A stretch of 63,945 bases of DNA, the filler included, from Lama guanicoe (taxonomy: Eukaryota), in NCBI GenBank assembly GCA_013239625.1. It is 82 parts of 79 records of this genome, joined end to end, with 100 filler letters (N's around TTAATTAATTAA, not from the genome) between each part and the next. Parts side by side here need not be neighbours in the genome. Positions count along the whole stretch, not along the records: positions 52,083 to 53,527 come from MU055668.1; 81 more parts are not named here. One strand, given 5' to 3'. The translations under genes were made by a program, and so were the position numbers. The notes under the pieces were generated by a model. The model did no database searches and was not told the DNA's origin. It worked only from the letters and a program-made list of their open reading frames with translations. Below are positions 4,048 to 63,792 of this stretch, one piece after another (positions within the stretch are counted from its first letter, which is position 1; each line of letters starts with the position of its first letter).

Positions 4048-4511
4048 GTTCTGCATTCCATGTTCTTAATACTGGGTTCAATATTCTTTATTCTCTGTTC
4101 TGTATTCTGTGTTCCTCATTCTATATCCTAAATTCTACATTCAGTATTCTGTATTCTATATTCTAAATAATGTTTTCTGCATTCCATGTTCAAAATTCTA
4201 TATCCAGTATTCTGTATTCTATATTCTAATACCTGTTTTCAGCATTCAATGTTCTAAATTCTATATTCAGTATTCTTTGTCCTATATACCAAATTCTGTG
4301 TTCTGCATTCCATGTTTAAATTCTGGGTGCTGTATTTTGTTTTCCATATTCTATATTCTGTGTTCTAGATTCTATATTCTGTATTTTATATTGTACATTC
4401 CGTATTCTATTTTCTATATTCTGTGAATCTACATTCTCTATTCTAAATTCTATATTCAGTAGACTGTATTCTATATTTAAAATTCTGTGTTCTGCATTCC
4501 ATGTTAAAATT
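4048..4511 (+). repeat. AT-rich heptamer (TTCTATA-like) satellite, family A
   Basis: Degenerate 7-mers TTCTATA, TTCTAAA, TTCTGTG, TTCTGCA, TTCCATG, TTCAGTA. Confidence 0.95.
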
Positions 4512-5260: not shown

Positions 5261-5705
5261 TTTTCTATATTCTGCATTCCGAATTCTATATTCTATTTTC
5301 AGTGTTCTAGATTGTATATTCGAAATTCTATGTTCCGTATTCTGTATTCAATATTCTAAATTCTGTGTCCTGCATTCCATGTTTTAAATTCTGGGTGCTA
5401 TATTCTCTACTCTATTCTATATTTTGTGTTTTTCATTCTTTATTCTACATTCTATATTCTGCATCCCGTATTCTCTATTCTGTATTATGTGTTCTACATT
5501 CTGTATTCTAAATTCTATATTCTGTATTCTGTATTCTAAATTCTGTGTTCTGCATTCCATTTTCTAAATACTGGGTTCTCTATTCTGTATTCTCTATTCT
5601 ATTTCTGTGTTCTACATTCTATATTCTTAATTATTTATTCAGTATACAATACTCTGTATTCTATATTCTATGTTCTGCATTCCATGTTCTATATTCTATA
5701 TTCAT
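5261..5705 (+). repeat. Heptamer satellite family A
   Basis: Same 7-mer vocabulary as 4048-4511. Confidence 0.95.
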
Positions 5706-11441: not shown

Positions 11442-11944
11442 CCCAGGGACAGAGGCTGCATCCCCAAGGTAAAGGAAGGTATTTCTCGGAACTCCCCAAA
11501 CAGGGAACACCTGTGGCTGAAGAGAGCTGCGTGGAGTTGTCTCTCGAGCTCCCCCACGCACTGACAATGGTTCCGGAATCCTGAGCGTGGGGAGGTTCCA
11601 CCAACGGTCGGCAGCGCGTGGGTTCNNNNNNNNNNNNNNNNNNNNNNNNNNNNNNNNNNNNNNNNNNNNNNNNNNNNNNNNNNNNNNNNNNNNNNNNNNN
11701 NNNNNNNNNNNNNNNNNNNNNNNNNNNNNNNNNNNNNNNNNNNNNNNNNNNNNNNNNNNNNNNNNNNNNNNNNNNNNNNNNNNNNNNNNNNNNNNNNNNN
11801 NNNNNNNNNNNNNNNNNNNNNNNNNNNNNNNNNNNNNNNNNNNNNNNNNNNNNNNNNCAAGGGTTCCCCTGAGCGTGTTGAGGTTCCACCAACGGTCGTC
11901 AGCGCGTGGGTTCTAACCGAGTGCCTAAGCTCGTCTCCCCTGAG
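11442..11944 (-). repeat. 267-bp GC-rich satellite, family B
   Basis: Reverse complement of the unit at 22316-22789. Confidence 0.93.
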
Positions 11945-15279: not shown

Positions 15280-15772
15280 CAACAAATTTAAGAAGATAGA
15301 AATTATCTCAAGCATCTTTACTGACCACAATGCCATGAAACTGGAAATCAACAACAGAGAAACAAAGGAGAAGAAAAGAAAAGCGTGGAGATTAAACAAT
15401 ATGTTATTGAAAAACAAGTGGATCAATGAGGAAATCAAAGCTGAAATTAAAAAATACCTTGAGACAAATGATAATGAAAGCACAACGACTCAAAACCTAT
15501 GGGACACAGCAAAGGCAGTGCTAAGAGGGAAGTTTATAGCAATACAGGCCTTCCTCAAAAAAGAAGAACAATCTCAAATAAACAAGTTAACCCACCACCT
15601 GAATNNNNNNNNNNNNNNNNNNNNNNNNNNNNNNNNNNNNNNNNNTCGACAAACCCCAAACTCACAAAGAAGAAAAAAGAGAGAGCACAAATTAGCAAAA
15701 TAAGAAAGGAAAATGGAGAAATTACAACAAACAAAATAGAAATACAGAATATCATACGAGAATATAATATTT
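15280..15772 (+). mobile_element. L1 ORF2 fragment (after the endonuclease domain)
   Basis: [10 protein letters not shown]...WRLNNMLL...[18 protein letters not shown]. Confidence 0.95.
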
Positions 15773-15872: not shown

Positions 15873-16395
15873 ATCAGTAATCCACAAGCTCACAACTCAG
15901 GAATGCATGTTTGTCGAATCCATCATTCATATATCATGTACGGAACACGGAATATCATGTTGGAGGAATCTATTCAAATTACATATCTCTAGGGTAGAAT
16001 TCACTCCAAGAGGGTTTTTCTGGGATCAAAGTGTGATTCTTGAAACTGGTGATAGGAGAAGCAACAAAGTCCAAGGAAATNNNNNNNNNNNNNNNNNNNN
16101 NNNNNNNNNNNNNNNNNNNNNNNNNNNNNNNNNNNNNNNNNNNNNNNNNNNNNNNNNNNNNNNNNNNNNNNNNNNNNNNNNNNNNNNNNNNNNNNNNNNN
16201 NNNNNNNNNTGGTTATGTAAACAATGTAAATTACATGTGTATTGGTGAGAATTCGCTCAAAGAGTGTTTTCTACTGCCAAATGTCCGATTTTAGACCCTG
16301 GTGATACAAAAAATTATGAAGTCAGAGTAAAAATTTCAAAGTGTATTATATTCCTTCTTTGGTGGATGAAAGTTCACTAATCCACATGCTCACAA
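15873..16395 (+). repeat. ~247-bp divergent-monomer satellite, family D
   Basis: TAATCCACA.GCTCACAA recurs 500 bp apart (15878 and 16378, across a gap). Homologous to 52083-53527. Confidence 0.88.
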
Positions 16396-19903: not shown

Positions 19904-21139
19904 ATCCAGCACAAAGGGAACGGGTTGCAGTATAAACCCTTTCTATGGTTTTTCAGTATGTTTCTTAGTGCCGGATTGAAGTGCCTGCCGTTTTCACTGT
20001 AAAACCGAGCTGGAGCTTGTACCTCCCCATATATATGTATGGGGTGGGGTTTGCAACTGAAAAGAAACTTTGTGTTCCCTTCAAGATAGCTGAAGGACGG
20101 CTTTCACACACACTTNNNNNNNNNNNNNNNNNNNNNNNNNNNNNNNNNNNNNNNNNNNNNNNNNNNNNNNNNNNNNNNNNNNNNNNNNNNNNNNNNNNNN
20201 NNNNNNNNNNNNNNNNNNNNNNNNNNNNNNNNNNNNNNNNNNNNNNNNNNNNNNNNNNNNNNNNNNNNNNNNNNNNNNNNNNNNNNNNNNNNNNNNNNNN
20301 NNNNNNNNNNNNNNNNNNNNNNNNNNNNNNNNNNNNNNNNNNNNNNNNNNNNNNNNNNNNNNNNNNNNNNNNNNNNNNNNNNNNNNNNNNNNNNNNNNNN
20401 NNNNNNNNNNNNNNNNNNNNNNNNNNNNNNNNNNNNNNNNNNNNNNNNNNNNNNNNNNNNNNNNNNNNNNNNNNNNNNNNNNNNNNNNNNNNNNNNNNNN
20501 NNNNNNNNNNNNNNNNNNNNNNNNNNNNNNNNNNNNNNNNNNNNNNNNNNNNNNNNNNNNNNNNNNNNNNNNNNNNNNNNNNNNNNNNNNNNNNNNNNNN
20601 NNNNNNNNNNNNNNNNNNNNNNNNNNNNNNNNNNNNNNNNNNNNNNNNNNNNNNNNNNNNNNNNNNNNNNNNNNNNNNNNNNNNNNNNNNNNNNNNNNNN
20701 NNNNNNNNNNNNNNNNNNNNNNNNNNNNNNNNNNNNNNNNNNNNNNNNNNNNNNNNNNNNNNNNNNNNNNNNNNNNNNNNNNNNNNNNNNNNNNNNNNNN
20801 NNNNNNNNNNNNNNNNNNNNNNNNNNNNNNNNNNNNNNNNNNNNNNNNNNNNNNNNNNNNNNNNNNNNNNNNNNNNNNNNNNNNNNNNNNNNNNNNNNNN
20901 NNNNNNNNNNNNNNNNNNNNNNNNNNNNNNNNNNNNNNNNNNNNNNNNNNNNNNNNNNNNNNNNNNNNNNNNNNNNNNNNNNNNNNNNNNNNNNNNNNNN
21001 NNNNNNNNNNNNNNNNNNNNNNNNNNNNNNNNNNNNNNNNNNNNNNNNNNNNNNNNNNNNNNNNNNNNNNNNACACACACTTATGTCTCTGAACTGAGCA
21101 TGTGGAGAGACGTTCTTTGATCCAGCACAAAGGGAACGG
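19904..21139 (-). repeat. ~248-bp satellite, family C
   Basis: GAAGGACGGCTTTCACACACACTT and GAACTGAGCATGTGGAGAGACG are shared with the 46862, 50891 and 58879 scaffolds. Confidence 0.93.
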
Positions 21140-21239: not shown

Positions 21240-22215
21240 GCACACACACGAACAGTTGCACAGCTATCCTGAGAGTGGGCAGCCTCCTCCAACTGACAGC
21301 AGGGCCTGGGATCTAATAAAATCGCTTACCTTGTCTTCCCTGTTTGGTTGCCTGATACGGTGTGCGGGAGGAGGTTGGGGTTGGGCTCTAAAACCAAGTA
21401 TTAGCGAGTGCTTCTCCATGGGAAGTGGAGGTTATTAACCAAAAACCCACAACCTGGGAATACCTGTGCTCCTTTAAAGATGCGTGGACTCTGTTTCCCC
21501 ACTTCCAGCACACACATGAAGAAGTGTTCTGGTATCCTGAGTGTGGGGAGGCACCTCCCACTGACAGCAGCATCTGGGATCTAATAGGATCCCTTAGGTT
21601 GACTTCCCTGAGTGTTTTCCAAGGNNNNNNNNNNNNNNNNNNNNNNNNNNNNNNNNNNNNNNNNNNNNNNNNNNNNNNNNNNNNNNNNNNNNNNNNNNNN
21701 NNNNNNNNNNNNNNNNNNNNNNNNNNNNNNNNNNNNNNNNNNNNNNNNNNNNNNNNNNNNNNNNNNNNNNNNNNNNNNNNNNNNNNNNNNNNNNNNNNNN
21801 NNNNNNNNNNNNNNNNNNNNNNNNNNNNNNNNNNNNNNNNNNNNNNNNNNNNNNNNNNNNNNNNNNNNNCCTGATGGCATGCCTAGGCTGGAGAGTGGGG
21901 GAAAGTGGGGGTTGGGTTTGAAGTCCAAGTAGCAACGAGTGCCCCCCGATTTACTGAGGACGTACTTAGAGGATTTCACGCTAATGTGGAACACCTGTGC
22001 CCCCATTTAACTGTGTTGACTGGGTATCCACAACTCCACCACACACAAGGCAGGGACCCGGAATCATGAGTGTGTGGAAGTTCCTCCAACTGACAGCAGC
22101 ACCTGCGTTCTAATAGAATAACTCAGCTTGAATTCCCTAAGTTTTTTCCTAGACTTAGCAGTGAGTGATGGTGGGGAATGGGCTCTAAACCAAGAATAAG
22201 CGAGTGCATCTCTGT
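21240..22215 (-). repeat. Strongly diverged 267/268-bp satellite related to family B
   Basis: TATCCTGAG at 21265 and 21533 gives a 268-bp period. Motifs are colinear with B (TCCTGAG.GTGGGGAGG, GGGAA.ACCTGTG, TGCGTGGA). Confidence 0.8.
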
Positions 22216-22315
22216 NNNNNNNNNNNNNNNNNNNNNNNNNNNNNNNNNNNNNNNNNNNNTTAATTAATTAANNNNNNNNNNNNNNNNNNNNNNNNNNNNN
22301 NNNNNNNNNNNNNNN

Positions 22316-22789
22316 ACTTCCCTGACCTTGGGGAGGTAGCCTCTGTCACTGGGATTCCCTGCAACCCCCCCTAGCGTTCCCTCTCACAGTGACATGAGGA
22401 AAACCCTCAGGGGAGACGAGCACAGGCATGCCCTTAGAACCCACGCGCTGCCGACCGTTGGTGGAACCTCCCCACGCTCAGGATTCCGGAACCATTGTCA
22501 TTGAGTGGGGGAGCTCGAGAAAGAACTCCACGCAGCTCTCTTCAGTCACAGGTGTTCCCTCCTCGGGTAAGTCCGAGAAATAACTTCCCTGACCTTGGGG
22601 AGGTAGCCTCTGTCACTGGGATTCCCTGCAACCCCCCCTAGCGTTCCCTCTCACAGTGACATGAGGAAAACCCTCAGGGGAGACGAGCACAGATATTCCC
22701 TTAGATCCCACACGCTGCCGACCGTTGGTGTACCGTCCCCACGATCAGGATTCCGGAACCATTGTCATTGAGTGGGGGAGCTCGAGAAA
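22316..22789 (+). repeat. 267-bp GC-rich satellite, family B
   Basis: ACTTCCCTGACCTTGGGGAGGTAGCC at 22316 and 22583; the copies are near-identical. Confidence 0.96.
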
Positions 22790-22889: not shown

Positions 22890-23325
22890 TAATACGGAAT
22901 GCAGAATATAGAATACAGAATATCGAATTTAGAAAACACTATATTTAATATGGAAAACAGAATACAGAACCCAGAATTTCGAATGGAACGCAGAACACAT
23001 AATGTAGAATATAGAATACAGAATACTGAATATAGAATTTAGAATATAGAATGTAAAACACAGAATATAGAATATAGTAAACGGAATGCAAAATATAGTA
23101 TGTAGAATGTAGAATGAAAAACACACAATATAGAATATTGAATAGAGAATGTATAACCCAGAATTAAGAACATGGAATGCAGAACACAGAATTTAGAATA
23201 TAGAATACATAATACTTAATATAGAATTTAGAATATAAAATGTAGAAAACAAAATTATGTATAAAATACAGAATGTTGAATATAGAGTTTAGAATAAAGA
23301 ATGTAGAACACAGAATATAAAATAT
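22890..23325 (-). repeat. Heptamer satellite family A
   Basis: TATAGAA-type 7-mers. Confidence 0.95.
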
Positions 23326-28831: not shown

Positions 28832-29938
28832 CGTTTTGCAGTCTAGTTTTTTGAAAGCTTATCTTTTGGGCCTTCAATATTTTGGAACTGAAATTGGTAC
28901 TTCCGGTTTCTTTTATTATACTTTTTCATCTCTAATTGTCAGGTAATATCAGGTATTTAATGTAGACTTCTAGGGCTTGGTTAAGTGAAAATTTTAGACT
29001 CTTGGCTCTACGCAATTCCATGGGATTTCTGTGAGGACAAATTCTCCAAGACATTGATGCCATATTCTGTTCCTGTGTGTGTTGTCTGGTATATCTCCAA
29101 TTGCTGGTGTTGCATTTGTTGTGATGGACAACCCATACTATTTCGATTAGCATAACTTCATTTTGATTACGCTTATCTCACAATTCTGAAAGTGCGCAGG
29201 ACACTTCCTCTTGAGGAAATGAGGCTTCTAAAGGTTCTGAGCTCTGCATTCTGCTCTATGTCATTTTGGAGTGTTTCCAAACAGCAAACTGAGTGTGCGC
29301 TTGTGCTTTGTAGTGCCACTGNNNNNNNNNNNNNNNNNNNNNNNNNNNNNNNNNNNNNNNNNNNNNNNNNNNNNNNNNNNNNNNNNNNNNNNNNNNNNNN
29401 NNNNNNNNNNNNNNNNNNNNNNNNNNNNNNNNNNNNNNNNNNNNNNNNNNNNNNNNNNNNNNNNNNNNNNNNNNNNNNNNNNNNNNNNNNNNNNNNNNNN
29501 NNNNNNNNNNNNNNNNNNNNNNNNNNNNNNNNNNNNNNNNNNNNNNNNNNNNNNNNNNNNNNNNNNNNNNNNNNNNNNNNNNNNNNNNNNNNNNNNNNNN
29601 NNNNNNNNNNNNNNNNNNNNNNNNNNNNNNNNNNNNNNNNNNNNNNNNNNNNNNNNNNNNNNNNNNNNNNNNNNNNNNNNNNNNNNNNNNNNNNNNNNNC
29701 CCTCAGACCAGATGCACAATAGCTCTGATTCAGCCCCACATGTGCTCTATTGGCAAAATGCCCAATTGGTCCCTGGTCCTGCAGATGCACTGGGTGTGGC
29801 CATGGGACATATCGGTAATCTCAACCGCGCGACCAGTGTGGTTGATTTATCATTCGTACACTGTTTGGTTTGCTCTCTTGATTCGACCAACCACATCCTA
29901 CAACGCACTCCAGATCGCTGAGACTCAGCGTGTGCCAT
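28832..29938 (+). repeat. Long-unit unclassified repeat, copy 1
   Basis: 29089-29927 is colinear with 59539-60389. Confidence 0.85.
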
Positions 29939-32799: not shown

Positions 32800-33262
32800 A
32801 TATAGAATTAAGAACACAAAATATTGAATATATAAAAGAGAATATAGACCTAGAATTTAGTAATGGAGTACAGAACACAGAATTTAAATATATAATACAA
32901 AATACTGAATATAGAATTTAGAATATAGAATGTAGAACACAAAATATAGAATATGGAAAACAGAATACAGAACCCAAAATTTAGAACATGGAATGCAGAA
33001 CACAGAATTTAGATTATAGAATACAGAATACTGAATATAGAATATAGAATATAGAATGTAAAACACAGAATATAGAATATAGTATACGGAATTCAGAATA
33101 GAGTATGTGGTATATAGAATTAAGAACCCAAAATATAGAATATATAATAGAAAATATAGAAGCCAGAATTTAGAATTTGGAATGCAGGCCACAGAATTTA
33201 GAATATAGAATACAGAATATTGAATATAGAATGTTGTATATAGAACGTAGAACAGAGAATTC
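32800..33262 (-). repeat. Heptamer satellite family A
   Basis: TATAGAA-type 7-mers. Confidence 0.95.
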
Positions 33263-42714: not shown

Positions 42715-43602
42715 AGAATATAGATTATGGAAACAGAATACAGAACCCAGAATTTAGAACATTCGCTGCAGAACACAGAATTTAGAATATAGTATACAGA
42801 ATACTGAATATATAATTTAGAATATAGAATGTAGAACACAGAATATAGAATATAGAATATGGAATGCAAAATATAGTATGTAGAATATAGAATGAAAAAC
42901 ACACAATGTAGTATATAGAATAGAGAATGTAGAACCCAGAATTTAGAACATGGAATGCGTAACACAGAATTTAGAATATAGTATACTGAAAATTTAGAAC
43001 ATAGAATGCAGAACACAGAAATTAGAATATAGAATACTGAATGCAAAAATTAGAATGTAGAATCTAGAATGAAGAACACAGAATATAGAATATATAAAAG
43101 AAAAGATAGAACCCAGAATTTAGAAATCGAATGCAGAGAATAGAATTTACAATATAGAATACAAAATACTGACTACAAAATTTAGAATATGAAAGAGGAA
43201 CACAGAATATAAAATATAGGAAAGAGAATTTAGAATATGGAATGCAGAACACAGAATTTAGAAAAAGAATACAGAACGCTGAATATAGGATTTAGACTAT
43301 AAAATGTAGAACGCAGGATATAAAATATAGGAAAGAGAATATAGAATATGGAATGCAGAACACAGAATTTAGAAAAAGAATACAGAACGCTGAATATAGG
43401 ATTTAGACTATAAAATGTAGAACGCAGGATATAAAATATAGGAAAGAGAATATAGAATATGGAATGCAGAACACAGAATTTAGAAAAAGAATACAGAACG
43501 CTGAATATAGGATTTAGACTATAAAATGTAGAACGCAGGATATAAAATATAGGATAGAGGATATAGAAACCAGAATTTAGAACATGGAATGGAGAACACA
43601 GA
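42715..43602 (-). repeat. Heptamer satellite family A with a 111-bp near-perfect triplication
   Basis: ACGCTGAATATAGG at 43276, 43387 and 43498. Confidence 0.95.
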
Positions 43603-46861: not shown

Positions 46862-47704
46862 TGTGTCTAATGCAACCTGTTCCCTTTTTGCTAGATGAAT
46901 GCTCGTTTCCACACATGCTCAGTTTTGAGCAATATGATGTATGAAAGCCGTCCTTTACCTAGCTTGTTGGGAACACAAAGTTTCTCTTCAGTTGCAAACT
47001 CCACTACATACAAATATATGGGGATGCACAAGCTCCAAATCGGATTTACATTGAAAACTGCAGGAACTTCAAACCGCCTCTTGGAAACAGACTGAGAAAC
47101 CAGAGAAATTGTTTCTCCTTCAACCTGTACCATTTGTGCAACATGAACGAACGTCTCTCCACATGCTCAGTTTTGAGAGTTAAGCGTGTGTGAAAGCCGC
47201 CCTTCACCTAGCTTGTTGGGAACACAAAGTTTCTCTTCAGTTGCAGACTCCACTCCATACAAATATANNNNNNNNNNNNNNNNNNNNNNNNNNNNNNNNN
47301 NNNNNNNNNNNNNNNNNNNNNNNNNNNNNNNNNNNNNNNNNNNNNNNNNNNNNNNNNNNNNNNNNNTCAACCGGCACTAGGAAATGCAGACTGAGGAAAC
47401 AGAGTAAGTTTTTCTCCTGCAACCTTTTCCTTTTGTGCTAATAGAAAGAATGGCTCTACACATGGTCCATTTTGAGAGTTAAGCGTGTGTAAAAACTGAG
47501 CTTCACATAGCTTGTTGGGAAAACCAAGTTCCTCTCCAGTTGCAAACTCCACTACATACATATATATTGGGAGGTACAAGCTCCAACTCGTTTTACAGTG
47601 AAAACTGAAGGAACATCAAAACGCACTTGGAAACAGACAGAGAAACCAGAGAAATTGTTTCTCCTGCAATCTGCTAAATTTGTGCTTGATGGACGAATGT
47701 CTCT
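46862..47704 (+). repeat. ~248-bp satellite, family C
   Basis: CATGCTCAGTTTTGAG at 46914 and 47162. Confidence 0.95.
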
Positions 47705-50890: not shown

Positions 50891-51432
50891 AAACACTTAC
50901 TCTGGTTTCTCAGTCTGTTTCCTAGTGCAGATTTGAAGTTCCTACGGTTTGTACTCTAAAACCGAGTTGGAGCTTGTTCCTCCCCATATATATGTATGGA
51001 GTGGTGTTTGACACTGACAAGAAATATGTGTTCTTTATACCTAGGTGAGGACGGCTTTCACACACACTTATCTCTCAGAACTGAGCATGTGGAGAGAGGT
51101 TCGTTCATCCAGCACAAAGGGAACGGGTTGCAGGAGAAACACTTACTCTGGTTTCTCAGTCTGTTTCCTNNNNNNNNNNNNNNNNNNNNNNNNNNNNNNN
51201 NNNNNNNNNGAGTTGAAACTTGTTCCTCCCCATATATATGTATGGAGTGGGGTTTGCAACTGACAAGAAACTTTGTGTTCCCTTCAAGCTCGGTGAAGGA
51301 CGGCTTTCACACACATTTATCTCTCAGAACTGAGCATGTGGAGAGACGTTCGTTCATCCAGCACTGAAGGCAAGGGTTGCAGTAGAAACCCTTACTCTGA
51401 TTTCTCAGTCTGTTTCCAAGTGCCGGTTTGAA
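50891..51432 (-). repeat. ~248-bp satellite, family C
   Basis: AAACACTTACTCTGGTTTCTCAG at 50891 and 51137. Confidence 0.95.
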
Positions 51433-52082: not shown

Positions 52083-53527
52083 GATGGAATCTATTCAAAT
52101 TACATATCTCTAGGGTAGAGTTCGCTTCAAGCGGGTTTTTCTGGGATCAAATTGTGATTCGTAAACTTGGTGATAGGGAGAATCTACGAAGACAAAGAGT
52201 ATATATCAAAGTGCATAGGTAACTTGTAATCGTTTAAGCATCATTCATGAGCATATTCACAACTCACAAATGCACGTTTGAGGAATCGGTATTGCATGAA
52301 ACATTTTCGGAATGCAGAATGCCATGGTTATGTACAAAATGTAAATTACATGNNNNNNNNNNNNNNNNNNNNNNNNNNNNNNNNNNNNNNNNNNNNNNNN
52401 NNNNNNNNNNNNNNNNNNNNNNNNNNNNNNNNNNNNNNNNNNNNNNNNNNNNNNNNNNNNNNNNNNNNNNNNNNNNNNNNNNNNNNNNNNNNNNNNNNNN
52501 NNNNNNNNNNNNNNNNNNNNNNNNNNNNNNNNNNNNNNNNNNNNNNNNNNNNNNNNNNNNNNNNNNNNNNNNNNNNNNNNNNNNNNNNNNNNNNNNNNNN
52601 NNNNNNNNNNNNNNNNNNNNNNNNNNNNNNNNNNNNNNNNNNNNNNNNNNNNNNNNNNNNNNNNNNNNNNNNNNNNNNNNNNNNNNNNNNNNNNNNNNNN
52701 NNNNNNNNNNNNNNNNNNNNNNNNNNNNNNNNNNNNNNNNNNNNNNNNNNNNNNNNNNNNNNNNNNNNNNNNNNNNNNNNNNNNNNNNNNNNNNNNNNNN
52801 NNNNNNNNNNNNNNNNNNNNNNNNNNNNNNNNNNNNNNNNNNNNNNNNNNNNNNNNNNNNNNNNNNNNNNNNNNNNNNNNNNNNNNNNNNNNNNNNNNNN
52901 NNNNNNNNNNNNNNNNNNNNNNNNNNNNNNNNNNNNNNNNNNNNNNNNNNNNNNNNNNNNNNNNNNNNNNNNNNNNNNNNNNNNNNNNNNNNNNNNNNNN
53001 NNNNNNNNNNNNNNNNNNNNNNNNNNNNNNNNNNNNNNNNNNNNNNNNNNNNNNNNNNNNNNNNNNNNNNNNNNNNNNNNNNNNNNNNNNNNNNNNNNNN
53101 NNNNNNNNNNNNNNNNNNNNNNNNNNNNNNNNNNNNNNNNNNNNNNNNNNNNNNNNNNNNNNNNNNNNNNNNNNNNNNNNNNNNTGAAGTCTAAGTAAAT
53201 ATTTCAAAGTGTATATGTGCTTTGTTTGGTGGATGAAAGTTCAATAATCCACATGCTCACAACTCAGAAACGCATATTTCTCGAATCCGTCATGCATGTA
53301 TCATGTACGGAACCCGGAATGCCATGTTGATGGAATTCATGTAAATTATATATCTATTAGGTGGAAATCGCCCCAGAAGTAATTTTCTGTGAAAAATGAA
53401 CGAGTTCGAAACTGGTGTTAGGAAAAGTTTGTGAAAATGTGTACACGTGTCTAGATGAATATACTGTTTTTATAGAGAATGAAAGATCAGTAATCCACAT
53501 GACCTCAACTCAGGAATGCATGTTTGT
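52083..53527 (+). repeat. ~247-bp divergent-monomer satellite, family D
   Basis: TAATCCACATG at 53245 and 53491 (246 bp apart). Three distinct monomer types are visible. Confidence 0.9.
52120..52136 (+). promoter_or_regulatory. CENP-B box
   Basis: GTTCGCTTCAAGCGGGT matches NTTCGNNNNANNCGGGN at all 9 essential positions. Confidence 0.75.
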
Positions 53528-53627: not shown

Positions 53628-54313
53628 TGTCTCTCGAGCTCCCCCACCCAATGACTATGGTTCCGGAATCCTGAGCCTGCAGAGGTTCCACCAACGGTCG
53701 GCAGCGCGTGGGTTCTAAGGGAATGCCTGTGCTCGTCTCCCCTGAGGGTTTTCCTCATGTCTCTGTGCCAGGGAATGCTAGGGGGGGTTGCAGGAAATCC
53801 CAGTGCCAGAGGTTGCCACCCTAATGTCAGGGAAGTTCTTCCTAGGACTTCCCCGAGCAGGGAACACCTGTGATTGAAGAGAGCTGCGTGGAGTTGTCTC
53901 TCGAGCTCTCCCACTCAATGACAATGTTTCCGGAATCCTGAGCGTTTGGAGGTTCCACCAACGGTCGGCAGCGCGTGGGTTCTAANNNNNNNNNNNNNNN
54001 NNNNNNNNNNNNNNNNNNNNNNNNNNNNNNNNNNNNNNNNNNNNNNNNNNNNNNNNNNNNNNNNNNNNNNNNNNNNNNNNNNNNNNNNNNNNNNNNNNNN
54101 NNNNNNNNNNNNNNNNNNNNNNNNNNNNNNNNNNNNNNNNNNNNNNNNNNNNNNNNNNNNNNNNNNNNNNNNNNNNNNNNNNNNNNNNNNNNNNNNNNNN
54201 NNNNNNNNNNNNNNNNNNNNNNNNNNNNNNNNNAAGGGAATGCCTGTGCTCGTCACCCCTGAGTGTTTTTCTCATGTCTCTGTGCCAGGGAATGCTAGGG
54301 GGGTTGCAGGAAA
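53628..54313 (-). repeat. 267-bp satellite, family B
   Basis: TGTCTCTCGAGCT at 53628 and 53895. Confidence 0.96.
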
Positions 54314-57988: not shown

Positions 57989-58778
57989 TGCATTCCATGT
58001 TATAAATTCTGGTTTCTATATTCTCAATTCTATATTCCATATTCGTGTTCTACATTATATATTCTAAATTCTGTGTTCTGCATTCTATGTTCTAAATTCT
58101 ATATTCAGTATTCTATATTCTATATACTAAATTAGGTGTTCTGCATTCCATGTGCTTAATTCTGTATTCTATAATCTGTATTCTATGTTCTGTGTTCTAC
58201 ATTCTATAATCTAAATTCTATATTCAGTATTCTATATTCTATATACTAAATTAGGTGTTCTGCATTCCATGTGCTTAATTCTGTATTCTATAATCTGTAT
58301 TCTATGTTCTGTGTTCTACATTCTATAATCTAAATTCTATATTCAGTATTCTATATTCTATATACTAAATTAGGTGTTCTGCATTCCATGTGCTTAATTC
58401 TGTATTCTATAATCTGTATTCTATGTTCTGTGTTCTACATTCTATAATCTAAATTCTATATTCAGTATTCTATATTCTATATACTAAATTAGGTGTTCTG
58501 CATTCCATGTGCTTAATTCTGTATTCTATAATCTGTATTCTATGTTCTGTGTTCTACATTCTATAATCTAAATTCTATATTCAGTATTCTATATTCTAAA
58601 TTCTGTGTTCTGCATTCTATGTTCTAAATTTTTAATTCTAAATTCTATATTCAGTATTCTATATTTTATATACTAAATTTGGTGTTCTACATTCTATGTT
58701 TTAAATTCTATATTCAGTATTCTGTATTGTATTGTCTAAATTCTGTGTTCTGCATTACAAGTTCTAAATTCGGGGTTT
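57989..58778 (+). repeat. Heptamer satellite family A with about four identical 119-bp units
   Basis: TTAGGTG at 58132, 58251, 58370 and 58489. Confidence 0.96.
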
Positions 58779-58878: not shown

Positions 58879-59438
58879 ACCGGCATTAGGAAACAGATTG
58901 AGAAAACTGAGTAATTGTCTCTCCTGCCACCTGTTCCCTTTGTGCTGAATGAACGAACGTCTTTCCACATGCTCCGTTCTGAGAGATAAGTGTGTGTGAA
59001 AGCCGTCCTTCACCTAGCTTGAAAAGAACACAAAGTTACTTTTCAGGTGCTATCTCCACTTCTCACATATATATGGGGAGGAACAAACTCCATCTCGTTT
59101 TACAGTGAAAACATGCAGGAATGCAGGAACTTCCAACCGGCACTAGGAAACAGACTGAGAAACCAGAGTAAATGTTTCACCTGCAACCCATTCCCTTTGT
59201 GCTAGATGAATGAACGTCTCTCCACATGCTCAGTTCTGAGACATAAGTGTTTGTGAAATCCGTCCTTCACATAGCTTGAAGGGAACACAAAGATTTTTTT
59301 GATTTTCAAACTCAACTAAATATATATATGTGTGGGGACGTACAAGCTCCAACTCGATTTTACAGTGAAAACTGCAGGAACTTCAATCAGGCACTTGGAA
59401 ACAGACTGAAAAACAGAGTAAGTGTTTCTCCTGCAACC
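58879..59438 (+). repeat. ~248-bp satellite, family C
   Basis: The GGCAC/TTAGGAAACAGA-type motif recurs at ~250-bp spacing. Confidence 0.95.
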
Positions 59439-59538: not shown

Positions 59539-60389
59539 GTCTATCTCCAATTGCTGGTGTTGCCTTTGTTGTGATGAACCCCGCATAGTAATTCGATTAA
59601 GATAACCTCATTTTGATTACGCTTATCTCACAAATCTGAAAGAGCACAGGACACTTCCTCAGGTGGAAACGGAGCTTCTAAAGGTTCTCAGCTCGGCATT
59701 CTACTCTATGTTATTTTGGAGTGTTTCCAGAAGAGCAGAGTGTGAGTGCGCTTGTGCTTTGTAGTGCCACGGGAATGTCCCACTGAAACCACTTCTTCCA
59801 AGAGCTTCTCTGTCTACAGAAACACCAGTGGAAGCATATCTATGGATGTCACTTATCAGGGACTGCTGGAATGATCCCGCAGCCCGAAATTGGTGTCCTC
59901 GCTGCCGATCCCTGCCGGTGCCATCCAAAATATAGCATCCGCTTTTGAGAGATAAACTGAAGGAAATCCTTCCTCTTCTCACGCTGTGGTCTTGGACCAC
60001 ACTTCCTTGTCCTCTCATCCTTGTGGCACGGGTGCACGAAGGCAACCACAGAGCTGTTGCACATCCTGTGCCTCAAACCAAACCATAATCACAGCCCAGG
60101 TTATGAATGTAGCAGATCCTAAGGCTTTTCATTCTGAATTCAAACCCAAGGCCCCCTGGATCCCTCAGACCCGTTGCACAATATCTCTGATTCAGCCCCA
60201 CACATGCTCTATTGGCAAAATGCCAAATTGTTTTCTGGTCCTGCAGATGCACTGGGTGTGGCCATGGGACATATCGATAATTTCAACTGCGCACCCCAGG
60301 GTGGTTGATTGCTCATTGGGGTCCCAGGTCGGTTTGCTCCCTTTATAGGACCCACCACATCCCACAACGCACTCCAGATCCCTGAGACT
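59539..60389 (+). repeat. Long-unit unclassified repeat, copy 2
   Basis: Colinear with 29089-29927. Confidence 0.85.
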
Positions 60390-60489: not shown

Positions 60490-61260
60490 GGAACAAAATA
60501 TTTTTGGTTATAAACAACACTACATAAATATATATGAGGAGATTCTAGCTCCAACTCAGCTTTACAGTGAAAACTGCAGGAACTTCAAACCTGCACTAGG
60601 AAACAGTCATAGAAATAAGAGTAAGTTTATCAATTTTAAACCATTCCCTTCATGCTAGAAGAACGACCGTCTCTCCACATGTTAATTTCTGAGAGATAAG
60701 TTTGTGTGAAAGCCGTCCTTCACCTAGCTTGCTGGCAAATAAAATAAAGTTTCATTTGGAAACTACAGTACATACATATATATGGGGAGGTACTAGTATC
60801 AACTCAGGCTTACATTCAAATTTGCAGAAACTTCAAACGGGCTGTAGGAATCATACTGAGAAAACAGAGACAGTGTGTCTTCTGCAACACGTTCCATTTG
60901 TGATACATGAAATATCATCTCTCCACATGCTAAACTCTTAGAGATAAGTATGTTTCAAAGCAAACTTCACCTGGATTCCTGGGAACACAAAGTTTCTTTT
61001 CATTTGGAAATTACACTAAAAACATATACATTGGAGACAATATTTTCAACTTGATTTTACACTGAAAGCTGCAGGAATTTGAAACCAGCACTTGAAAACA
61101 CACAGAGAAACAAGAGTAATTGTTTCTCCTTCCACCCGGTCCTTTTGTGCTAGATGAATGGAAATGTCTCCACATGCTAATTTCTGAGAGAAATTTGTAT
61201 GTGAATAACGTCCTAACAAGTTAGGAACACATAGCTTCTTTTAATATGGAAAGTGCAATA
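60490..61260 (+). repeat. Diverged, AT-shifted family C satellite
   Basis: CCACATG at 60675, 60923 and 61170. Confidence 0.9.
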
Positions 61261-61360: not shown

Positions 61361-62086
61361 CGCGTTGCCGACTCTTGGTGGAAGCTCCCCTCGCTCAGGA
61401 TCCCGGAAAAATAATTAGTGCGTGGGGGAGCTCGAGAGACAACTCCACGGAGCTCTCTTCACTCACAGGTGTTCCCTGTTCGGGGAAGTCCGAGAAATAC
61501 CTTCCCTGACCTTGGGGAGGCAGCCTCTGTCCCTGGGACTTCCTGCAAACACCCCTAGCATTCCCTGGCACAGAGACATTAGGAAAACCCTCAGGGGAGA
61601 CGAGCTAAGATTAGAACCCACGCGCTACCGAAAGTTGGTGGAACCTTCCCACGCTCAGGATTCTGGAACCATAATCAGTGCGTGGTGGAGCTCGAGAGAC
61701 AATTCCACGCAGCTCTCTTCAGTCACTGGTGTTCCCGGTTCGCGGGAAGTCCGAGAAATAACTTCCTTAACCTTCGGGATGCAGCCTCAATAACTGGGAT
61801 TTCCTGAACCCCCCGCTAACATTCCCTGGCAGAGAGATATTAGGAAAACCATCAGGGGAGATGAGCTAAGGCATTCCCTTAGAACCCTCGCGCTGCCGAA
61901 TGTTGGTGGAACCTCCCCAAACTCAGGATTCAAGAGCCATTGTGTGTGCTTGGGGGAGCTCGAGAGACAACTCCACGCAGCTCCCTTCCGTCACAGGTTT
62001 TCCCTGCTACGGGTATGTCCCAGAAATATCTTAACTTTCCTTGGGGAGGAAACCGCTGACACTGGACATGCCAGCGCAGACCCCCA
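61361..62086 (+). repeat. 267-bp satellite, family B
   Basis: GAGCTCGAGAGACAA occurs three times. Confidence 0.95.
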
Positions 62087-62186: not shown

Positions 62187-62979
62187 ATTTAGAATGTAGA
62201 ATGTAGAACACAGAATAAAGAATATAGAATCCAGATTACTGAATATTGAATTTAGAATATAGAATGTAGAACACTGTACATAGAAAAAAGAATACGGAAT
62301 GCAGAGTATAGAATGTAGAATATAGAATGAAGAACTAGAATTTAGAACATAGAATGTGGAACACAGAATTTAGACTATAGAATACAGAATACTGAATATA
62401 GAATTTAGAATATAAATTGTATAACACAGAATATAGAATATAGAATACTTAATGCAGTATATTTAATGTAAAACATTGAATGACTAACACAAAATTTAGA
62501 ATATAGAATAGAGAATATAGAAGCCAGAACATAGAACATGGAATGCAGAACACAGAATTTAGAATATACAATGCACAATACTTAATATAGAAATAAGAAT
62601 ATAGAAAGTAGAATACTGAATATAGAATATAGAATACAGAATACTGAATATAGAATTTTGAATAAAGAATGTAGAACACTGAATATAGAATATAGAATAA
62701 AGAAACAGAATACTGAATATAGAATTTAGAACATAGAATGCAGAACACAGAATTTAGAATATAGAATACAGAATACTGAATATAGAATTTAGAGCATGGA
62801 ATGCAGGAAACAGAATTTAGAATATAGAATATAGAATGATGAATATAGAATTTAAAATGTAGAATGTAGTACACAGAATATAGAATATAGTATATGAAAT
62901 GCAAAATATAGCATGTAGAATATTGAAAGTAAAACACACAGTATAGAATAGAGAATAGAGAATATAGACCCCAGAACTT
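62187..62979 (-). repeat. Heptamer satellite family A
   Basis: TATAGAA-type 7-mers. Confidence 0.95.
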
Positions 62980-63726: not shown

Positions 63727-63792
63727 TGGGATTTACTGCAAACACCCCTAGCATTCCGAGGCACAGGGACATTAGGAAAACCATCAGGGGAG
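63727..63792 (+). repeat. Family B satellite fragment
   Basis: CCCCTAGCATTCC...GGAAAACCATCAGGGGAG. Confidence 0.85.

What the first reader, a model, noticed from the sequence alone, without database searches (positions are those of the whole stretch)
52083..53527. Satellite D appears to be a three-monomer (~745 bp) higher-order repeat
Three divergent ~247-bp monomers recur in a fixed order in two independent scaffolds. D1 is marked by GATCAGTAATCC...GGAATCTATTCAAATTACATATCTCTAGGG and carries the box. D2 is marked by TGGTTATGTA.A.AATGTAAATTACATG...TGAAGTC. D3 is marked by GGATGAAAGTTCA.TAATCC. Scaffold 15873 reads D1-D2-D3; scaffold 52083 reads D1-D2-gap-D2-D3-D1. The spacing from ATTACATG to TGAAGTC is 80 bp in the first and 833 bp across the gap in the second. 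The ~750-bp difference equals three monomers. Same-type monomers resemble each other more than their neighbours, as in an alpha-satellite-like HOR.
Basis: partly seen in the sequence, partly recalled or inferred. Interest (0 to 1): 0.7.

Follow-up and report, generated by a model that had tools for sequence, protein, structure and literature searches.

The report
Camelid three-monomer satellite repeat
This is a real but ordinary kind of repetitive DNA: a camelid satellite whose ~740-base unit is built from three diverged ~247-base monomers, a distant sister of the llama's main candidate centromere repeat, and its apparent CENP-B protein-binding box is a peculiarity of this one copy.

Summary
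Four gap-free contigs carry three monomer types (same type 229/266 = 86% identical, different types 867/1323 = 66%). All three junctions, D1-D2, D2-D3 and D3-D1, occur in gap-free sequence, closing a 739-bp cycle. The 832-N gap exceeds the direct distance by 753 bp, and 5 of 6 other satellite gaps in the window keep phase within 20 bp. Contigs of four public runs (four coded organisms) continue the pieces as predicted, but the listed ones reach only 235 bp, so no whole unit was seen. The window is camelid. Satellite D is a distant, collinear sister (46-50% identical) of the 248-bp llama candidate centromere repeat of Melters 2013, for which no HOR was found. Correction: D1 does not typically carry a CENP-B box. 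The 9/9 match at 52121-52135 depends on a C that 97-99% of laid contig depth in each run, and all three other window monomers, read as A. Two D3 variants differ in share between the runs. Verdict: new member of a known kind (compare the Pithecia/Chiropotes trimer); centromeric role untested.

The parts
52083..52240 (+). D1 monomer, from about position 90 to its end; a diverged copy
   Evidence: 96/119 identical to D1 at 15873 against 70/118 to D3 and 73/119 to D2; many near-fixed differences from public contigs
52121..52135 (+). Perfect 9/9 CENP-B-box match, peculiar to this copy; the bulk of D1 is at most 8/9
   Evidence: Only exact match in the window; position 52132 reads A in 97-99.8% of laid depth in 4 of 4 runs
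52241..52352 (+). D2 monomer, first ~112 bases, joined gap-free to D1
   Evidence: 26/28 identical to D2 at 16210; loose ends behind 52352 continue as 16238-16267 in 4 of 4 runs
52353..53184 (.). 832-N scaffold gap; equals 79 missing bases of D2 plus 753 bp, about one more unit
   Evidence: gap-phase control
53185..53239 (+). D2 monomer, last 55 bases
   Evidence: 47/54 identical to D2 at 16317-16371 against 31/53 and 32/53 to D3 and D1
53240..53485 (+). D3 monomer, complete, 246 bp; one of two variants seen in public contigs
   Evidence: variant sites
53486..53527 (+). D1 monomer, first 42 bases, joined gap-free to D3
   Evidence: 38/42 identical to D1 at 15873 against 33/42 to D3
15873..16080 (+). 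Second scaffold: D1 monomer, first 208 bases (box position 7/9)
16081..16209 (.). 129-N gap; D1-to-D2 distance 245 bp against 239 bp in the gap-free copy
16210..16371 (+). Second scaffold: D2 monomer, from about position 87 to its end (box position 7/9)
16372..16395 (+). Second scaffold: D3 head, joined gap-free to D2
   Evidence: 22/23 identical to D3 at 53240
58879..59438 (+). Comparator, not part of D: best window copy of the major 248-bp satellite, to which D is homologous and collinear
   Evidence: motif of the published llama repeat found here; local alignment z 10.9 and 9.3 for two D contigs; alignment

Best explanation
Satellite D is a non-coding, AT-rich (33-38% GC), high-copy tandem satellite of camelids. 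Its unit of amplification is a ~740-bp trimer D1-D2-D3 of diverged ~247-bp monomers. It shares an ancestor with the 248-bp major camelid satellite. Most likely history (inferred): monomers of the old 248-bp family diverged, a block of three was fixed by unequal crossing-over and then amplified and homogenised as one unit, so that units now resemble each other more than neighbouring monomers do. Most likely role (inferred): structural (peri)centromeric heterochromatin, a secondary layer beside the major 248-bp array, not bound by CENP-B in bulk. The window's copies are diverged outliers, which would explain why they were assembled at all.
For: Shown: three types, 86% against 66%; three gap-free junctions; gap residuals of +6 and +14 bp with 5 of 6 control gaps within 20 bp. 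In 4 of 4 runs laid, the loose end behind 52352 matches the D2 sequence of the other scaffold, and the loose end behind 53459 runs through a D3 tail into a D1-type head. Contigs of 235 and 223 bp in X6 and X14 join 52352 to 53194, leaving by arithmetic the 88 bases that the other scaffold has there. At 23 of the 40 variant sites shown, at least 85% of depth in all four runs carries one same other base, so the bulk is more uniform than the window copies. Homology to the major satellite: 18 of 28 contig pairs exceed all 30 shuffles by z over 3.5 (best 10.9), while 20 control pairs with the 268-bp satellite reach at most z 3.1.
Against: No listed record spans a whole unit; the longest listed piece is 235 bp (32 of 50,640 pieces shown). 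Summed depth over the D1-tail/D2-head junction (52181-52278) is about 10- to 100-fold below the neighbouring bins, so that junction is thinly covered outside the window. A few low-depth joints switch between types at the same phase, such as 52159 to 53186; they may be cross-mapping or shorter unit variants. The contig 52083-52352 shows no clear homology to the major satellite (z at most 2.7). Nothing here tests chromosomal position or protein binding.
Confidence: 0.8

Rival explanations
1. The true unit is longer: a hexamer or other 3n-mer built from trimer variants (for example with both D3 variants), or it holds further monomer types not sampled in the window.
For: Two D3 variants co-occur in all four runs (sites 53224, 53363, 53384, 53414, 53448; loose ends at 53366 and 53373). 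Same-type window copies are only 81-96% alike. No record spans even one unit.
Against: The share of the second variant is 0.10-0.23 in X3, 0.53-0.75 in X1 and 0.77-0.94 in X6 and X14, not the constant half that a fixed hexamer would give; this fits two separate arrays better. Caveat: one run per organism, and summed contig depth is no copy number. The gap excess of 753 bp fits three monomers, not four or five.
Confidence: 0.12
2. D is a CENP-B-bound, functional centromeric HOR, with the box in one of three monomers as in human alpha satellite.
For: One exact 9/9 box in a D1 copy; bulk D1 appears to be 8/9 and D2 7/9 at the homologous place; D is related to the llama candidate centromere repeat.
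Against: The base that completes the box is A in 97-99.8% of laid depth in 4 of 4 runs and in 3 of 3 other window monomers. A match of 8/9 or better has a chance of about 0.06 per 739-bp unit, and the window holds 2 matches with up to one mismatch against 2.3 expected. Passages of 10.64898/2026.05.25.727640 report that CENP-B binds canonical boxes within alpha satellite, with weaker signal at degenerate motifs.
Confidence: 0.06
3. The order is a scaffolding artefact of collapsed monomeric satellite subfamilies.
For: The window is a string of short unplaced scaffolds joined by a fixed spacer; both D scaffolds contain estimated gaps.
Against: All three junctions lie inside gap-free contigs, and D2-D3 and D3-D1 recur in contigs of independent public runs.
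Confidence: 0.02

Closest known systems
Lama glama 248-bp candidate centromere repeat (Melters et al. 2013, PMC4053949, supplementary files 1 and 3)
   Same: Same monomer length; collinear and in phase with D; present in the same window as 7 contigs.
   Different: Only 46-50% column identity to D; 45% GC against 33-38%; listed with HOR 'not found', although the authors say trimers were rarely detectable in Sanger reads; no CENP-B-box-like motif at the homologous position.
S3-S4-S5 alpha-satellite trimer of Pithecia and Chiropotes (as reviewed in PMC7767330)
   Same: A trimer of diverged monomers that became the amplified unit, ascribed to unequal crossing-over; one monomer shares sequence with the other two. 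D1 likewise resembles D3 in its first 100 columns (80-82%) but not in its last 50 (39%).
   Different: Primate 171-bp lineage, no sequence homology claimed or tested; monomer 247 bp here.
Human alpha-satellite HORs
   Same: Fixed order of diverged monomers; same-position monomers more alike than neighbours.
   Different: Human HORs are over 95% identical; window copies of D are 81-96%. No consensus CENP-B box in D. Chromosome specificity untested.
Equid CENPB-sat and 37cen (PMC11804003)
   Same: A secondary satellite related to the major centromeric satellite and bearing box-like sequence where the major one has none.
   Different: CENPB-sat has a canonical box in its consensus and was found by CENP-B ChIP; D has at most 8/9 in bulk and no binding data.
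Alpaca satDNA catalogue VpaSat01-20 (PMC13751797)
   Same: Same animal group; a VpaSat11 primer matches another scaffold of this window at 19/20.
   Different: Units of 1.8-8.5 kb, centromeric satellites left aside by the authors; no D motif in the visible first 400 bases of the 14 consensus sequences.

Membership tests
Higher-order repeat (alpha-satellite type) | Several distinct monomer types, same type more alike than neighbours | tested here: met
   86% against 66%
Higher-order repeat (alpha-satellite type) | Fixed monomer order | tested here: met
   D1-D2, D2-D3 (twice) and D3-D1 in gap-free contigs; D2-D3 and D3-D1 also in public contigs. Tested for neighbours only.
Higher-order repeat (alpha-satellite type) | Multimer repeated head to tail on one molecule | tested here: inconclusive
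   Gap excess 753 bp against 739 bp, control gaps in phase 5 of 6; no record spans a unit
Higher-order repeat (alpha-satellite type) | Unit-to-unit identity over 95% (live human HORs) | tested here: inconclusive
   Window copies 81-96%; bulk looks more uniform at 23 of 40 sites shown but unit-to-unit identity was not measurable
CENP-B-box-bearing centromeric satellite | nTTCGnnnnAnnCGGGn in the consensus of at least one monomer | tested here: not met
   9/9 in one window copy only; A in place of the second C in 97-99.8% of laid depth in 4 of 4 runs; definition from PMC11804003
CENP-B-box-bearing centromeric satellite | CENP-B binding; CENP-A occupancy; centromeric position | not testable with these tools
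   No ChIP, FISH or chromosome-level assembly; no genome held for the window
Camelid major 248-bp satellite (Melters 2013) | Monomer of ~248 bp, homologous and collinear | tested here: met
   246-bp period; z up to 10.9 against shuffles; alignment in phase
Camelid major 248-bp satellite (Melters 2013) | Identity within the range of family members (79% among window copies) | tested here: not met
   D against major 46-50%: a sister family, not a member

The most novel reading that the evidence does not exclude
Satellite D is an older or parallel centromeric layer of camelids: a trimeric sister of the box-less 248-bp major satellite whose monomers sit one or two bases from a CENP-B box, with a rare boxed D1 sub-lineage (the window's copy) either newly gained or left over. 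Camelids would then be a second mammalian case, after equids, where CENP-B-box sequence is uncoupled from the major centromere repeat, and two D subfamilies would be turning over between species with an unchanged karyotype.
Probability: 0.12. Interest if true: 0.6.

Novelty: new member of a known kind. Interest (0 to 1): 0.27.

Why it matters
Multimeric satellites are common (76 of 171 species with Sanger data in PMC4053949), so the structure itself is no surprise. Its use is local: camelid centromeric satellites are nearly undescribed in the papers I could search, the 2026 alpaca catalogue leaves them aside, and the llama repeat was listed without a HOR. A defined 740-bp unit, its tie to the major 248-bp family and two subfamilies with different shares among related organisms give probes and markers for camelid centromere assembly and for tests of the satellite library model. 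The result on the box is a caution: a perfect motif in one assembled outlier copy does not describe the array.

Tried and rejected
Whole-genome search: no genome is held for this window, so array size and position are unknown. Tandem Repeats Finder lists no array at either D scaffold; the contigs hold under 1.4 monomers. Rfam at gathering score: 0 matches in 52083-53527. Homology of D to the 268-bp satellite: rejected, 20 pairs, z at most 3.1. D motifs in the alpaca satDNA supplement: 0 hits, but cells are cut at 400 characters, so this is weak. CENP-B box as a D1 marker: rejected. Summed contig depth as a measure of monomer stoichiometry: not used, the tool states it is no copy number. The uncovered gap (52353-53184) is N in the reference and tells nothing. 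Two rows were dropped as faulty: the 291/291 self-overlap for 60490 (redone: 173/245) and the 11/13 row for 52083. Rows with share 0.00 or none (X21-X24) were not used. The idea that D1 is a D3/D2 chimera is kept only as a hint: in the last 50 columns D1-D2 (59%) is no higher than D2-D3 (60%). The VicPac4 paper (10.1016/j.ygeno.2026.111212) is not held. Earlier notes e1-2576137 and e1-4022681 concern bacteria and have no bearing.

Full report
Setting. The window is a string of short scaffolds separated by a fixed spacer of 44 N, a 12-base AT motif and 44 N. It is camelid DNA: a published alpaca VpaSat11 primer matches at 29757-29776 with one mismatch, 0 expected by chance, and a 22-base motif of the published llama candidate centromere repeat occurs 7 times with up to 2 mismatches, 0 expected. 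The species was not determined. No whole genome is held.

The observation. An all-against-all search of the window's gap-free pieces puts satellite D in four contigs: 15873-16080, 16210-16395, 52083-52352 and 53185-53527. The period inside the last is 246 bp. Eight monomer pieces were aligned. The 5 same-type overlaps give 229/266 = 86% identity (range 81-96%), the 16 cross-type overlaps 867/1323 = 66%. Over matched columns each of 5 test pieces is closest to its own type, one of them by a single base. D1-D2 is gap-free at 52240, D2-D3 at 53239 and again at 16371, D3-D1 at 53485. The order is therefore a closed cycle without any use of gap lengths. Its length is 270+79+343+47 = 739 bp.

The gaps. 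In the first scaffold the D1-to-D2 distance is 245 bp against 239 bp in the gap-free copy. In the second the gap exceeds the direct distance by 753 bp, 14 more than one unit. As a control I asked whether the 6 gaps tested in the window's other satellite scaffolds keep monomer phase: the residuals are -16, +40, -8, +20, +2 and -18 bp. So these estimates carry phase information, and a D2 recurring three monomers on is the natural reading. It remains an estimate.

Public runs. Of 24 runs listed, 20 hold the stretch 53185-53527 or part of it; they come from 8 studies and 4 coded organisms, with assemblies of about 2 Gb. I laid 4 of the 20, one per organism (X1, X3, X6, X14), on 52083-53527 at 85% likeness; 12,762, 30,044, 3,064 and 4,681 records were laid. 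The tables were cut: 40 of 74 variant rows, 15 of 24 joints, 12 of 39 between-letter rows, 24 of 398 loose ends and 32 of 50,640 pieces were shown. In 4 of 4 runs the loose end behind 52352 agrees with window 16238-16267, the D2 continuation in the other scaffold (by eye 25/25, 30/30, 29/30, 27/30). In the 3 runs with such a row shown, the loose end before 52086 agrees with D1 in the other scaffold. In 4 of 4 runs the loose end behind 53459 runs through a D3 tail into a D1-type head. Two contigs (X6, 235 bp; X14, 223 bp) join 52352 to 53194; their lengths leave 88 bases between, as in the other scaffold (my arithmetic; the tool lists the letters between as not known). Against this: no listed piece is longer than 235 bp, the D1-tail/D2-head region has about 10- to 100-fold less summed depth than neighbouring bins, and some low-depth joints switch type at the same phase. 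One of these runs may share its source with the window.

The box. The only exact match to the nine essential bases in the window is 52121-52135 (definition in PMC11804003). At 52132 the laid contigs read A, not C, in 0.99, 0.97, 1.00 and 0.99 of depth, and the three other window monomers covering this column read A too. The homologous 15-mers score 9/9, 7/9 (other D1), 7/9 (D2) and 5/9 (D3). No row was shown for the other essential bases of D1, so bulk D1 is probably 8/9; 34 rows were hidden. A match of 8/9 or better has a chance of about 0.06 per unit. Contigs drop rare variants, so a small boxed subfamily is not excluded. The box is best read as a single-base change in a diverged copy.

Array structure. 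At 23 of the 40 sites shown, at least 85% of depth in all four runs carries the same other base: the window's copies are outliers of a more uniform bulk. At five sites in the D2 tail and D3 the share of the other base is 0.10-0.23 in X3, 0.53-0.75 in X1 and 0.77-0.94 in X6 and X14. This suggests two subfamilies whose amounts differ between organisms, and it speaks against a fixed hexamer with one of each. It rests on one run per organism and on summed depth, which is no copy number.

Origin. D is homologous to the window's major 248-bp satellite. Of 28 contig pairs, 18 score z over 3.5 against 30 shuffles, best 10.9; the contig 52083-52352 contributes none. Twenty control pairs with the 268-bp satellite reach at most 3.1. 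The families align in phase over the whole monomer at 46-50% column identity, against 79% within the major family and 63-66% between D types. The major satellite has no box-like motif at the homologous place. D1 and D3 are 80-82% alike in the first 100 columns and 39% in the last 50, a hint of unequal crossing-over in the birth of the trimer.

How it works. Shown: three types, fixed neighbours, high copy number in four related organisms, common ancestry with the major satellite, no consensus box. Inferred from general knowledge of satellite evolution: amplification and homogenisation of the trimer as one unit by unequal exchange or gene conversion, and a structural role in (peri)centromeric heterochromatin. 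I put 0.8 on this, 0.12 on a longer unit, 0.06 on a CENP-B-bound centromere core and 0.02 on artefact.

What is known. PMC4053949 (passages and supplement hits) lists the llama repeat as 248 bp, 45% GC, 2.9% of the genome, HOR not found, and notes that trimers were rarely detectable. PMC13751797 (parts 1-4 of 8 and the spreadsheet with cells cut at 400 characters; the slide supplement could not be read) covers non-centromeric units of 1.8-8.5 kb. PMC7767330 (passages) describes the Pithecia/Chiropotes trimer and the over-95% identity of human HORs. PMC11804003 (passages), PMC13477059 (passages) and 10.64898/2026.05.25.727640 (passages; supplements closed) supply the CENP-B background. Nine searches showed no description of a ~740-bp camelid trimer in their listings. 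The VicPac4 paper is not held; Vidal-Rioja 1987 and 1994 were seen only as citations; Repbase and Dfam could not be searched. D may therefore already be named. Three look-ups of earlier scan notes returned none on this repeat.

Verdict. A real trimeric satellite, a new member of a well-known kind, without a consensus CENP-B box. Interest 0.27.

Noticed in passing
window 19904-21139, 46862-47704, 50891-51432, 58879-59438, 60490-61260: Copies of the major 248-bp satellite, matching the llama candidate centromere repeat of PMC4053949; adjacent monomers 84% alike in two contigs and 71% in the degenerate one at 60490.
   Followed up: partly
window 11442-11944, 21240-22789, 53628-54313, 61361-62086, 63727-63792: A GC-rich ~268-bp satellite. 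From recall, the NOR-associated SAC-SAT has a unit of about this length; that paper was not held. By eye a stretch of the VpaSat16 consensus resembles it.
   Followed up: no
window 4048-4511, 5261-5705, 22890-23325, 32800-33262, 42715-43602, 57989-58778, 62187-62979: A 7-bp simple satellite with nested periods of 21 and 63 bp, and near-perfect higher periods of 111 bp (92%) and 119 bp (98%) in two contigs: a clearer nested HOR than satellite D.
   Followed up: no
window 28832-29938 and 59539-60389: Pieces of the ~5.3-kb VpaSat08/09/11/12 family, judged by a 19/20 primer match and shared sequence between the scaffolds.
   Followed up: partly
window 53240-53485: Two D3 variants whose shares differ strongly among the four coded organisms; possible species-diagnostic satellite markers.
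   Followed up: partly
whole window: Scaffolds are joined by 44 N, a 12-base motif with stops in all frames, and 44 N; neighbouring scaffolds are not physical neighbours.
   Followed up: yes
window 15280-15772: Fragments that read like LINE-1 ORF2 (recognised from recall, not tested) directly before the first D scaffold; adjacency is only an effect of concatenation.
   Followed up: no
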